IMG/VR virus record: IMGVR_UViG_2529292908_000015
Coordinates: 1 to 13,916 of that record
Direction: 5' to 3' (one strand)
Source: a virus
Lineage: Duplodnaviria; Heunggongvirae; Uroviricota; Caudoviricetes
Length of the DNA stretch: 13,916 bases
Shown here in pieces: positions 3,001 to 6,000 of the stretch (position 1 is its first letter; each line of letters starts with the position of its first letter). Made by a program: the position numbers.

Positions 3001-6000
3001 GGCATCATCCTCCGTCATGGCACCGAGAAAATCATTCAGCGTACCCGGTTGTGAGTCTTCATACACGGTGATGGTCCCGGCATGCGATGGCGGGAAGCCT
3101 TCCACCAACAGAATAACGCTGTACTGACCGTACTCAACGTCCATGCTGTAACGCCCGGCTTCATCCGGATTTTCTGAGGCCACCGTGTTCGCCACCACCG
3201 TGGTGCTGTTACGTTTTGCTTTCAGCTGGATTGTGCAGTTCTGTACCGGTTTTCCTGTGCCGTCTTTCAGTACACCAGAAATCTTTACTGTCATATTCAC
3301 CCCACAAAAAAGCCCGCCTGAACCGGCGGGCTGTCATAACTCTGTGTTACCTGGCTAATCAGAATTTATAGCCGACACCCACGATGAAACCGTCAGTGCG
3401 CCAGTCGCCACTGCCGGAACCTTCATAAGCAATATCAATGGCCACGGATTCGGTCGGGTTAAACTGCACGCCAGCCCCCCACGCCAGTGACGTGTTGCTG
3501 TGGCGACCGTCATCACTTCCGGTCAGCACATCGTGCGTTTTCCCCTTGTTGTCAGTTACGCGGAGATAATCCCCGGAGAAAGTCGACACACGGCTGTAAG
3601 CCACACCCGCCATCGCATACGCGCTGAACCATTCATTCACGCGCACAGATGGCCCCGCCATCACGCTGAACCAGCGGTTACGCACAGAATCCTCATGCCA
3701 GCGGGTATCGTTGTAGTGCGTTTTTTGCTCACCTTCAGCATTGGCATAACTGAATGACGTAATCAGCCCCAGCGTGTCCGTAAATTCATAACGGTATTTC
3801 ACGTTAATCCCGTTCAGATTATCGCTGCCGGGAGCGTTCGTACGGGCATGAAGATACCCCGCGCTCAGTGTGGACTGATGTTCAGACGCCCATGCAGGCG
3901 CACCGGATACGGACAGACAGATGGCTGCGGACAAAATGGCTGCACAAACTTTACGCATAATTACCTCTCGCTTTTCTGCAATAAAAAAGGCGCCATTTCT
4001 GGCGCCCGTATATGGGTTATAAAATTCAGCTGATACTGATGCCTGCGGTGGCTTTCTTCATCACCACAACCAGCAAATCGCTGATACTTGCTGTGGGATA
4101 CCAGTTATTCATCAGCCATGCTGATACCGAAAACTCCAGCGTCATGTGACCGTGACCGGCAGGCATATCAATAACGCCACTGTAAATCAGCGTATTATCC
4201 AGCGCGGTACGGTTATAAATTTCAGCACCGTTTTTCCGCACTATCAGACGGCATGAGGAGTAAATATCAGTATGCTCTCTCTCATGCTTAGCGCCACTGA
4301 ATGCCACCGCCGGAATAACAATCTGCCGGTCAAACGGCTGATCGTCATAAACCCTGACGGTAATGGTCCCTGATGGCCACCGCTCCGGTGCACGGGAGTC
4401 ACGGGGGAAAGCTTTGCCCACTGTTTTAACGAGATCGCCTTCAATCTGGTTCGCGGACAGTTTTCCCAGAACCCGACAGTTCTCGTTAATCGTGACGTTG
4501 TTGAGCGTCCCGGAATTCGCATTCACGTTACCGCTGATATCAGCATTTCTTGCGGTCAGCCTGCCCTCCGGCGTCAGGGAAAACGTCGGGGGATTGCCGG
4601 ACGAGGTGATACTCACCGCAAACAGCCGCTTCAGGAACACATCGTTCATGAACAACTGATTCCCCTGCGCCACAAATAACGGCGTGGTGTTGCCGTCCTC
4701 CGGGTTAATCATCGCAATACGGTCAGCCAGCAGCAGTATGTTGCTCAGGGGCTGGCCATCAGTATCCTCAATCCCCGCTCCAATACCGGCAACATAGGGT
4801 ATGCCATTTTTTGTTTTCTGTACCTTCAGCATGTAAAGTGCAGCAAGGTCATCATTTGTGTCCTTCTGCACGCGCTGTACTGCCGGTTCAGTGAAGTATA
4901 CGTCTCCAGCAGCTGGTGGTGGGGCTTTTCCAGTTCACCCCGCTGATGCTTCTCTTCTGCCACCCTGGCAAACAGTGCCTGTAATTTCAGATAATCGCTT
5001 TCGTTCGGCAACTGCCACTGACTGGCACTGAACCAGTGCGACACCATGTTTTTCTTTCCTGTGGCATCTGCAATCTGTTTTGCCGTTATCCCCAGGGCCG
5101 CGCGCGCATCACGAAAGTAAGAAATCAGCGGGGCCATCACATGCTGTTTCAGTGCACTGCCCTTCGCCGCATACCCGGCATCTTTCGGACGATACGGCCC
5201 CTGATAATGTTCCGCGAACAGAATGCGCTCTGTGGCGGGGAAATACGCCCGCAGGCTTTCCTTGTTGCATCCGTTCCAGCGTCCGGACGGCTTCGCCCAG
5301 ATAATATGGTTCAGCACACTGAAGCGTTCACGCATCATGATTTCGATATCAGATGCCAGGCGATGACCACAGAACAGGTAAAGACTTCCGGCAGGTTTCA
5401 GCACCCGCCAGAACTGCGCCAGACACTGGTCCAGCCACTTCAGGTAATCATCGTCGCCCTTCCACTGGTTATCCCAGCCCTCAGGCTTCACTTTAAAGTA
5501 CGGCGGGTCCGTGACTATCAGGTCAACAGAATTTTCGGGTAACGACCGGATAAATTCCAGGCAGTCGGCGTTGATTAACTCACAACTGGATATTTTCACA
5601 GTATTAAGCATGGATCATTAAGCCTGTCTCTGATAGGCTCATTCTGCTTTTGCGCAAAGCAGTGGGCCTGAGGTTTGCTTGTGAACCCAACGCATGAGCA
5701 GATGGCTGGTGGGTGCCCCTAACACCCACCAGCCGCCCATTTACCACAAATAAAAAAGCCTTCACTGCGGAAGGCGTCTGTAACAACCGAACTGATAGTC
5801 TGCCAGACCCGCCATAACCAGCTGGGTCAGTATTAACTGGCAGCGTTCGCGTGAAAGGTAAGTATTCTGCGCAATCTCCCCGACTGTCGCCGGGTCGGTA
5901 ACGCTTAATTCATTAAACACCACTCTGGCGGTTTCTGTCATATCCTGCTGTTTCAGCATGTCTTTTTCCCTTTTCCGATTAACGTGACACACCAATAACT

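What the first reader, a model, noticed from the sequence alone, without database searches (positions are those of the whole stretch)
4826..4940. Deletion junction fusing a truncated DPPY methyltransferase to the 3' quarter of tail gene J
The methyltransferase has motif IV (DPPY) but no FxGxG AdoMet-binding motif, and its last ~36 codons are an out-of-frame read into J-like sequence. The J frame opens only from about 4934 and has no ATG, so roughly three quarters of J and everything normally between late promoter and J are missing. This is a clean marker that the prophage is cryptic, and the same methyltransferase/J-fragment/lom/stf layout recalls the Rac prophage of E. coli K-12.
Basis: partly seen in the sequence, partly recalled or inferred. 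Interest (0 to 1): 0.5.

Follow-up and report, generated by a model that had tools for sequence, protein, structure and literature searches.

The report
Large deletion scar in cryptic prophage
This is the scar of a roughly 25 kb deletion inside a lambda-like prophage of E. coli DEC6C, which joined the first 70% of a phage DNA methylase gene to the last quarter of the tail-tip gene J; it is ordinary prophage decay.

Summary
On the minus strand, a phage DNA methyltransferase gene (96% identical to the 352-aa methylase of Stx2a phages) stops matching at window 4878. The tail-tip gene J (98.5% nt and 99.3% aa identity to a 1157-aa E. coli J) starts matching at 4879-4883. The two share only a "TA" (imperfect GCAG[A]TA).

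The methylase keeps residues 1-245, including DPPY. It loses the HPCEKP and FMGSG AdoMet-binding part and ends in 16 out-of-frame codons, not about 36. J keeps only residues about 875-1157.

The window comes from a draft contig of E. coli DEC6C, from a prophage at the yecE/yecD site. A collinear Stx2a phage at the same site shows that about 25.6 kb is missing: three tRNAs, the stx position, lysis, packaging, head and tail genes, and three quarters of J.

I found the junction in no other genome, metagenome or viral contig searched. Other strains carry independent deletions of the same kind.

The comparison with K-12 Rac fails. Rac has no homologue of this methylase or of J; its fragment (ynaA) is annotated as a tape-measure domain protein.

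Verdict: a genuine but ordinary, strain-specific deletion by illegitimate recombination, which leaves a cryptic prophage. Interest is low.

The parts
4880..5611 (-). 5' 70% of a phage beta-class N6/N4 DNA methyltransferase gene (residues 1-244 plus part of codon 245). It has DPPY at residues 35-38 and lacks the C-terminal HPxxKP and FxGSG AdoMet-binding part.
   Evidence: 96% nt and 96.7% aa identity to the 352-aa DNA methylase of Stx2a phage Stx2_95 up to residue 245. Pfam PF01555 profile 1-107 of 221 here, against 1-219 in the full protein. Solved beta-class MTases match the full protein in two stretches, and the second (aa 280-340) is deleted here.
4878..4879 (-). Deletion junction: the dinucleotide TA, shared by both parents. 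The imperfect microhomology is GCAGTA in the methylase and GCAGATA in J. There is no filler DNA.
   Evidence: Three-way alignment of the window, the full methylase and full J. BLAST end points are 4878 and 4883.
4826..4877 (-). 16 junk codons plus the TGA stop of the truncated methylase ORF, read out of frame through J-derived DNA.
   Evidence: Translation gives ...[21 protein letters not shown] against native ...LNRQY|AELQSEYKHLRRYF....
4026..4879 (-). 3' quarter of tail-tip/host-specificity gene J (residues about 875-1157 of 1157): the Phage_Tail_Tip domain and the C-terminal receptor-binding Ig_GpJ_C domain. Possible internal starts are GTG at 4871 and ATG at 4832.
   Evidence: 99.3% aa identity to residues 874-1157 of J of E. 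coli O104:H4 2009EL-2071. Pfam results. The N-terminal 873 residues have no match anywhere in the window or in the 19-kb contig stretch.
5762..5959 (-). Small conserved hypothetical gene (65 aa) that precedes the methylase in related phages. A terminator-like hairpin follows at 5775-5758.
   Evidence: Annotated in the same position in Stx2 phages and E. coli prophages. Terminator scan.
7688..8086 (-). Antiterminator Q gene. A promoter-like site lies just downstream at 7683-7654 and is a candidate late promoter.
   Evidence: Pfam Phage_antitermQ, E=1.2e-53. Promoter scan (consensus match only).
3359..3958 (-). lom (Ail/Lom outer-membrane protein), retained downstream of the J fragment. The terminator-like hairpin at 4007-3988 precedes it.
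   Evidence: Pfam Ail_Lom, E=1e-127. Terminator scan.
1735..3300 (-). Side tail fibre gene (stf) with collagen-like repeats and a Peptidase_S74 chaperone domain; retained.
   Evidence: Pfam phage_tail_N, Collagen and Peptidase_S74.
1137..1694 (-). Gp38-like tail-fibre adhesin/assembly gene; retained.
   Evidence: Pfam Gp38_N. Annotated 'receptor recognizing protein Gp38' in 99%-identical E. coli loci.

Best explanation
A single internal deletion of about 25-30 kb occurred in a lambda-like (long-tailed, Stx2a-phage-type) prophage integrated at yecE in E. coli DEC6C. It arose by illegitimate recombination at a 2-bp microhomology (6 of 7 bases if one gap is allowed). It joined codon 245 of the late-region DNA methyltransferase gene to codon 874 of tail-tip gene J.

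The deletion removed the methylase's AdoMet-binding half. By comparison with collinear phages, it also removed the tRNA cluster, the stx/moron position, nanS-p, the lysis cassette, terminase, portal, head and tail-shaft genes, and the first three quarters of J.

The result is a cryptic prophage. It keeps its replication/Q side and its lom/stf/gp38/dinI side, but it cannot lyse the cell or build particles. The methylase fragment is predicted to be catalytically dead.

Shown: the two homology end points, the missing domains, the absence of the missing halves nearby, and collinearity with an intact phage at the same attachment site. Inferred: the recombination mechanism, the loss of enzyme activity, and the exact gene content of the lost segment.
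For: Junction mapped to the base by alignment with a full methylase and a full J and by BLAST end points.

The full methylase is 352 aa, with HPCEKP and FMGSG at about aa 281-311, and covers PF01555 1-219 of 221. The window copy covers 1-107. Solved beta-class methyltransferases (M.RsrI, CcrM, M.MboIIA, DpnA) align to the full protein in two stretches, and the C-terminal one is deleted here.

The J fragment equals aa 874-1157 of 1157.

Stx2a phage Stx2_12E129_yecE has Q-hyp-methylase-3 tRNA-stx2AB-...-J-lom-stf-dinI in the same order. It shares the right-end host flank with the DEC6C contig. The equivalent of the lost interval is its 14689 to about 40305, or about 25.6 kb.

No tRNA genes remain in the window. 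The missing halves of both genes give no hit better than E=0.4 in the window or in the 19-kb contig stretch.

Independent deletions of the same kind exist elsewhere: portal'-'J in E. coli JKHS016, 68 nt from this end point, and methylase-tRNAs-'lom in Z1323PEC0011.
Against: The junction is known from one draft contig only, so it could not be confirmed from reads or from a second isolate.

The contig ends inside the Rha gene. The left end of the prophage (integrase, attL) was therefore not seen, and I could not show that both halves belonged to one prophage rather than two.

A 2-bp microhomology is no more than chance would give, so the recombination mechanism is inferred, not shown.

Whether the ancestor carried stx is unknown.
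Confidence: 0.88

Rival explanations
1. The junction came from recombination between two different prophages (tandem at yecE, or at separate chromosomal sites, with deletion or inversion of the intervening DNA), not from a deletion within one prophage.
For: Tandem prophage arrays containing this methylase-type phage exist; they are 89-94 kb records such as Stx2_12E129_PPompW and Stx2_EH1910. In E. coli JKHS016 the best matches to the two halves of the window lie in different prophages, at about 1.13 Mb and 2.19 Mb. The left end of the DEC6C prophage is off the contig. The two halves have their closest relatives in different strains.
Against: A single phage (Stx2_12E129_yecE) carries both halves in the same order and orientation, at the same attachment site as the window's right end. 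One deletion is therefore enough. Mosaic best hits are usual for lambdoid phages.
Confidence: 0.07
2. The junction is an assembly or sequencing artefact of the DEC6C draft genome, and the real prophage is intact.
For: The junction occurs in one draft contig and nowhere else among 5,426 complete E. coli genomes, one genome for each of 185,579 species, metagenome contigs or viral contigs. The same contig carries four 1-nt deletions in A5-6/T5 homopolymers relative to a 99.5%-identical prophage, and these look like base-calling errors.
Against: Assemblers mis-join at long repeats. Here the two sides share only 2 bp. The contig continues for kilobases on both sides into collinear phage and host sequence. 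Comparable real deletions are seen in complete genomes.
Confidence: 0.04
3. The 261-aa methylase and the 268-281-aa J C-terminal product are selected, functional short forms (for example a DNA-binding methylase remnant, or a free receptor-binding domain), not debris.
For: Both ORFs are open. The internal J ATG at 4832 overlaps the end of the methylase ORF (ATGCTGA), which would allow translational coupling. The J fragment holds the complete C-terminal receptor-binding domain.
Against: The fusion is unique to one strain, so there is no sign of conservation or spread. The methylase tail is out-of-frame junk. No Shine-Dalgarno-like sequence is evident before the ATG on reading the sequence. Nothing here was tested for expression.
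Confidence: 0.02

Closest known systems
Long-tailed lambdoid Stx2a-converting phages integrated at yecE (e.g. Stx2_12E129_yecE, LC567842.1; also Stx2_95, LC567838.1)
   Same: They have the same order of replication genes, DUF968, Q, a small hypothetical gene, the DNA methylase, then J, lom, tail fibre and dinI, and the same right-end host flank. Identity is 94-96% nt over the methylase and replication stretches that align (the 6139-7970 segment does not align) and 72-90% over the aligned parts of J/lom/stf.
   Different: The window lacks the roughly 25.6 kb between methylase codon 245 and J codon 874, which in that phage includes the tRNAs, stx2AB, lysis, packaging, head and tail genes. The window also carries an HsdR_N-like gene on the opposite strand downstream of Q (6307-7580). 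That gene is present in other E. coli prophages but does not align to LC567842.1.
Cryptic prophage Rac of E. coli K-12 (ynaK-ydaY-ynaA-lomR-stfR-tfaR)
   Same: It is also a lambdoid remnant in which a large late-region deletion left a gene fragment directly upstream of lom, stf and tfa. lom and the 5' end of stf are 93-97% identical in DNA to the window.
   Different: Rac has no homologue of this methylase and no J fragment (tblastn). RefSeq annotates the fragment before lomR (ynaA) as a tape-measure domain protein, and ynaK as ParB-like. Rac sits at a different chromosomal site (ttcA/ttcC). Its junction is therefore a different event in a different phage.
Beta-class N6-adenine/N4-cytosine DNA methyltransferases (PF01555; M.RsrI, CcrM, M.MboIIA, DpnA)
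   Same: The N-terminal half has the DPPY catalytic motif and aligns to the N-terminal part of these enzymes.
   Different: The C-terminal stretch that aligns to the AdoMet-binding FxGxG region of these enzymes (aa 280-340 of the full-length homologue) is absent.
Independent late-region deletions in other E. coli prophages (JKHS016 portal'-'J; Z1323PEC0011 methylase-tRNA-'lom)
   Same: They have the same outcome: the morphogenesis genes are lost and the lom/stf end is retained. In JKHS016 the J-side end point is only 68 nt from this one.
   Different: The end points and upstream partners differ (portal gene, or DNA just past the tRNAs), so these are separate events.

Membership tests
PF01555 / beta-class DNA N6-adenine or N4-cytosine methyltransferase (as an active enzyme) | Catalytic motif IV (D/S)PP(Y/F) | tested here: met
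   DPPY at residues 35-38 of the 261-aa ORF. Pfam PF01555 E=2.2e-17 over profile 1-107.
PF01555 / beta-class DNA N6-adenine or N4-cytosine methyltransferase (as an active enzyme) | AdoMet-binding motif I (FxGxG) in the C-terminal part of the domain | tested here: not met
   There is no FxGxG in the ORF. The full-length homologue has FMGSG at about aa 309-313 and HPCEKP at about 281-286. The window copy ends its homology at aa 245. Profile coverage is 1-107 of 221, against 1-219 in the full protein.
PF01555 / beta-class DNA N6-adenine or N4-cytosine methyltransferase (as an active enzyme) | Methyl transfer to DNA | not testable with these tools
   Needs an enzyme assay or a methylome of DEC6C.
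Lambda-type tip attachment protein J (complete, functional) | C-terminal receptor-binding domain (Ig_GpJ_C) preceded by the tail-tip fibre domain | tested here: met
   PF12421 E=2.5e-38 (full profile) and PF09327 E=6.3e-23. 99.3% aa identity to J residues 874-1157.
Lambda-type tip attachment protein J (complete, functional) | N-terminal and central domains that build the tail tip (FNIII-A_GpJ, Phage-tail_3, Ig_J, Ig_J_second) | tested here: not met
   These are present in the full 1157-aa J. They are absent from the window and from the 19-kb contig stretch.
Cryptic (defective) lambdoid prophage | Phage regulatory and replication genes present (Rha, O-like, DnaC-like, DnaB-like, Q) next to tail-end genes (lom, stf, gp38-like, dinI) at a known attachment site | tested here: met
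   Pfam results.
Cryptic (defective) lambdoid prophage | Loss of genes essential for lysis, packaging and virion assembly | tested here: met
   The contiguous sequence runs from methylase codon 245 straight into J codon 874. There is no holin, endolysin, terminase, portal, capsid or tail-shaft gene in the window.
Cryptic (defective) lambdoid prophage | Inability to produce plaques or particles on induction | not testable with these tools
   Needs mitomycin C induction of DEC6C.
Rac prophage of E. coli K-12 (same element or same junction) | Homologous genes on both sides of the junction (ynaK/ydaY upstream, ynaA fragment downstream) and the same chromosomal site | tested here: not met
   No BLAST similarity between the window's methylase or J fragment and ynaK, ydaY, ynaA or any part of Rac 1420000-1436000. 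Rac is annotated next to ttcC and uspF, whereas the window's prophage lies next to yecD and aspS.

The most novel reading that the evidence does not exclude
The deletion may have created a new bicistronic unit under Q-dependent late transcription. In it, the stop of the dead methylase ORF overlaps an internal ATG of J (ATGCTGA at 4832-4826). A free 268-aa J receptor-binding domain would then be made by translational coupling. It could act as a decoy or receptor blocker, giving superinfection exclusion against phages that use the same receptor.
Probability: 0.02. Interest if true: 0.45.

Novelty: already known. Interest (0 to 1): 0.08.

Why it matters
It matters little beyond annotation.
- It marks this yecE prophage of E. 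coli DEC6C as defective. GenBank's 'DNA methylase family protein' (EHV61528.1) and 'hypothetical protein ECDEC6C_2224' (EHV61527.1) are the two halves of a deletion scar.
- The lost interval is the one that holds stx2 in collinear phages. The scar is therefore compatible with, but no evidence for, past loss of a toxin cassette.
- It adds one more example of recurrent, independent late-region deletions that keep the lom/stf end of lambdoid prophages.

Tried and rejected
1. Rac analogy. I fetched K-12 Rac and ran blastn, blastp and tblastn. There is no methylase or J homologue, so the analogy is rejected.

2. Dating the deletion by finding the same junction elsewhere. All searches were negative:
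- megablast across the junction against 5,426 complete E. coli genomes;
- an exact 24-mer scan of species-representative genomes, metagenome contigs and viral contigs;
- an exact-protein look-up, which found one contig only.
The deletion therefore cannot be dated beyond 'not seen outside DEC6C'. The species-representative collection holds one genome per species, and sibling DEC6 strains could not be examined.

3. Rearrangement instead of deletion. I searched the window and the 19-kb contig stretch for the missing methylase C-terminus and J N-terminus and found nothing.

4. Strain cM8a as a candidate intact progenitor. It is 99.4% identical over window 1-3439, but it is a different mosaic at mlrA, with an HTH gene in place of the methylase. 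It served only as a second size estimate of about 30 kb.

5. tRNA and Rfam scans of the window found nothing.

6. Literature searches for the accession and the strain gave nothing relevant.
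Full report
**Anatomy.** Every gene relevant to the finding lies on the minus strand. Reading in the direction of transcription, from high to low coordinates, the window holds:
- a Rha-family fragment (13380-13766);
- a replication protein (11689-12675);
- a DnaC/IstB-like loader (10779-11687);
- a DnaB-like helicase, split into two ORFs (10441-10782 and 9383-10375);
- a DUF968 protein (8089-9132);
- antiterminator Q (7688-8086);
- an HsdR_N-like gene on the opposite strand (6307-7580, split in two);
- a small hypothetical gene (5762-5959);
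- the methyltransferase ORF (4826-5611);
- the J-like ORF, ending at 4026;
- lom (3359-3958);
- a collagen-repeat side tail fibre (1735-3300);
- a Gp38-like protein (1137-1694);
- dinI on the plus strand (1-249).

These assignments rest on Pfam and on annotated relatives.

**The observation.** The 261-aa ORF at 4826-5611 contains DPPY and no FxGxG. It matches PF01555 over profile positions 1-107 of 221 only. The frame that ends at 4026 is open back to a stop at 4935-4937.

**Where the junction is.**
- megablast against complete E. coli genomes and against phages shows methylase homology beginning at window 4878.
- J homology ends at 4883 when one gap is allowed.
- I aligned the window with a full-length methylase (Stx2a phage Stx2_95) and a full-length J (E. 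coli O104:H4 2009EL-2071). On the minus strand the window reads ...CTGAACCGGCAGTA|CAGCGCGTGCAGAAGGAC... The methylase continues ...GCAGTATGCGGAACT, and J arrives as ...CAGCAGATACAGCGCGTG.
- The only bases shared perfectly are TA (4879-4878). With one gap the shared stretch is GCAG(A)TA.
- There is no filler DNA and no IS remnant.

**What each fragment keeps and loses.**
- *Methylase.* It retains codons 1-245 of 352. It then reads 16 out-of-frame codons ([16 protein letters not shown]) to a TGA at 4828-4826. In fact 4880-4934 is methylase DNA that happens to be open in the J frame.
- *J.* The J-derived DNA (4879-4026) encodes residues about 875-1157 of 1157, which is 24.5% of the protein, at 99.3% aa identity.

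**The methylase is truncated, not a short form.**
- Full-length homologues are 349-352 aa and cover PF01555 positions 1-219 of 221 over residues 29-340.
- Their C-terminal part carries HPCEKP and FMGSG.
- Solved beta-class enzymes (M.RsrI, CcrM, M.MboIIA, DpnA and others) match the full protein in two stretches: residues about 7-141 and 280-340. The second stretch is entirely missing from the window copy.
- In this class motif IV (DPPY) precedes motif I (FxGxG). This is established knowledge of the beta-class permutation.
- A C-terminal truncation therefore removes cofactor binding. Loss of activity is an inference; it was not measured.

**The J fragment is not an independent protein.** A full J has solid Pfam matches to six domain families, plus a sub-threshold Y_Y_Y match, and the fragment has only the last two. 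The N-terminal 873 residues of J and the C-terminal 107 residues of the methylase give no hit better than E=0.4 anywhere in the window or in the 19-kb contig stretch around it. The missing halves were therefore lost, or at least moved out of this stretch, rather than shuffled within it.

**Source and context.**
- The exact 261-aa protein is on record on a single contig, AIFX01000054.1 of assembly GCA_000249635.2.
- GenBank names it 'DNA methylase family protein [Escherichia coli DEC6C]' (EHV61528.1). It names the 268-aa J fragment, which starts at the internal ATG at 4832, 'hypothetical protein ECDEC6C_2224' (EHV61527.1).
- The window is that contig stretch reversed.
- Beyond dinI lie an isochorismatase-family gene (yecD), aspS, a NUDIX gene, yebC and ruvC. 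This is the yecE/yecD neighbourhood.
- The contig ends inside the Rha gene, so the integrase end was not seen.

**The intact counterpart.** Stx2a phage Stx2_12E129_yecE (LC567842.1, 46.1 kb) is annotated with insertion duplications at yecE. Its gene order is: int ... O, DnaC-like, DnaB-like, hyp, ydfU (DUF968), Q, hyp, DNA methylase, three tRNAs, stx2A, stx2B, yjhS (nanS-p), holin, endolysin, endopeptidase, terminase, portal, protease/scaffold, tail genes, tape measure, host-specificity protein (J), lom, tail fibre..., dinI.
- The window aligns collinearly with it on both sides of the junction. Identity is 96% at the methylase, 94.5% over the replication genes, 72-90% over the aligned parts of J/lom/stf and 89% at dinI.
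- The DEC6C contig aligns on into that record's right-end host flank.
- In that phage's coordinates the lost interval is 14689 to about 40305, or about 25.6 kb.
- In another relative, the mlrA prophage of strain cM8a, the same interval is about 30 kb.
- The simplest history is one internal deletion in one prophage.
- No tRNA gene remains in the window.
- Whether the ancestor carried stx at the usual position cannot be told.

**Transcription context (consensus scans only).** A promoter-like site sits just downstream of Q (7683-7654, minus strand). A terminator-like hairpin sits between the small hypothetical gene and the methylase (5775-5758). Another sits between J and lom (4007-3988). By analogy with lambdoid late operons, the methylase fragment and the J fragment would be transcribed only under Q antitermination. 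This is inference.

**Uniqueness.**
- No complete E. coli genome (5,426 genomes) has a match crossing the junction. All methylase matches start at 4878 and all J matches end at 4883.
- The exact 24-mer across the junction is absent from one genome per species of 185,579 species, from the metagenome contigs and from the viral contigs.
- The event is thus strain- or clone-specific as far as these collections can tell. They do not include the sibling DEC6 strains.

**Parallel events.**
- In E. coli JKHS016 a truncated portal gene is fused to a J fragment whose end point lies 68 nt upstream of this one.
- In E. coli Z1323PEC0011 an intact 349-aa methylase and its tRNAs are followed directly by a 5'-truncated lom.
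- Late-region deletions that keep the lom/stf end are therefore recurrent and independent, which makes this junction ordinary.

**The Rac comparison.** K-12 Rac (1411899-1434958) has ynaK (annotated ParB-like), ydaY, ynaA (annotated as a tape-measure domain protein), lomR interrupted by IS5, stfR and tfaR.
- The window shares DNA similarity only with lom and the 5' end of stf.
- Neither the methylase nor J, truncated or full length, has any protein-level match in the Rac stretch.
- Rac resembles this element only in the general sense that a late-region deletion left a fragment next to lom. It is not the same layout.

**Rivals.**
- *Recombination between two prophages* cannot be excluded, because attL is off the contig and tandem arrays of this phage type exist. 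The collinear single phage at the same site makes it unnecessary.
- *An assembly artefact* is unlikely, because the two sides share only 2 bp. However, the junction rests on one draft contig. That contig also shows four 1-nt deletions in A5-6/T5 runs relative to a 99.5%-identical prophage.
- *A functional reading of the fragments* has no support beyond the open frames and the ATGCTGA overlap.

**Verdict.** This is a real, precisely mapped deletion scar in a cryptic lambdoid prophage. It is ordinary in kind and is already explained by well-known prophage decay. Interest is low.

Noticed in passing
window 10447 (DnaB-like, ORFs 10441-10782 + 9383-10375), 6800 (HsdR_N-like, ORFs 6307-6831 + 6774-7580), 9115, 6174: There are four single-base deletions relative to a 99.5%-identical prophage of E. 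coli SW070917, all in A5-6 or T5 homopolymers. Two of them split genes that are single ORFs in the relative (a 1401-nt helicase gene and a 1158-nt 'type I restriction endonuclease' gene). They could be real decay or homopolymer sequencing errors of the draft assembly.
   Followed up: partly
window 6307-7580 (+ strand): An HsdR_N-domain gene, annotated 'type I restriction endonuclease' (385 aa) in relatives, sits antisense between Q and the late genes. It is present in some related prophages, but this stretch does not align to the yecE Stx2a phage. It may be a moron or a defence-type cargo gene.
   Followed up: no
L002 (E. coli JKHS016, NZ_CP147059.1) 5646-5651: An independent portal'-'J fusion has its J-side end point only 68 nt upstream of the window's. 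The downstream J/lom/stf DNA is 99.1% identical to window 351-4883.
   Followed up: partly
L010 (E. coli Z1323PEC0011, NZ_CP148277.1) 5060-7021: Another independent late-region deletion: a full 349-aa methylase and three tRNAs are followed directly by a 5'-truncated lom and stf.
   Followed up: partly
window 1735-3300 (-): The side tail fibre is one continuous 521-aa ORF with collagen-like GXY repeats and a Peptidase_S74 intramolecular-chaperone domain. In 99%-identical loci of strains cM8a and JKHS016, RefSeq annotates it as a truncated pseudogene plus a separate small 'tail fiber domain-containing protein'.
   Followed up: no
window 12059 and 12104 (within replication gene 11689-12675): There are in-frame 6-nt and 12-nt deletions relative to the SW070917 prophage inside the O-like replication gene. 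This could be variation in origin repeats.
   Followed up: no
window 4826-4832 (-): The internal J ATG (4832-4830) overlaps the end of the truncated methylase ORF as ATGCTGA. This arrangement could allow translational coupling. GenBank calls the 268-aa product from this ATG.
   Followed up: no
window 385-708 (+), 849-1061 (-): Between the Gp38-like gene and dinI lie a YkgJ-family cysteine-cluster ORF and a DUF4376 fragment. RefSeq annotates the equivalents as pseudogenes in cM8a and JKHS016.
   Followed up: no
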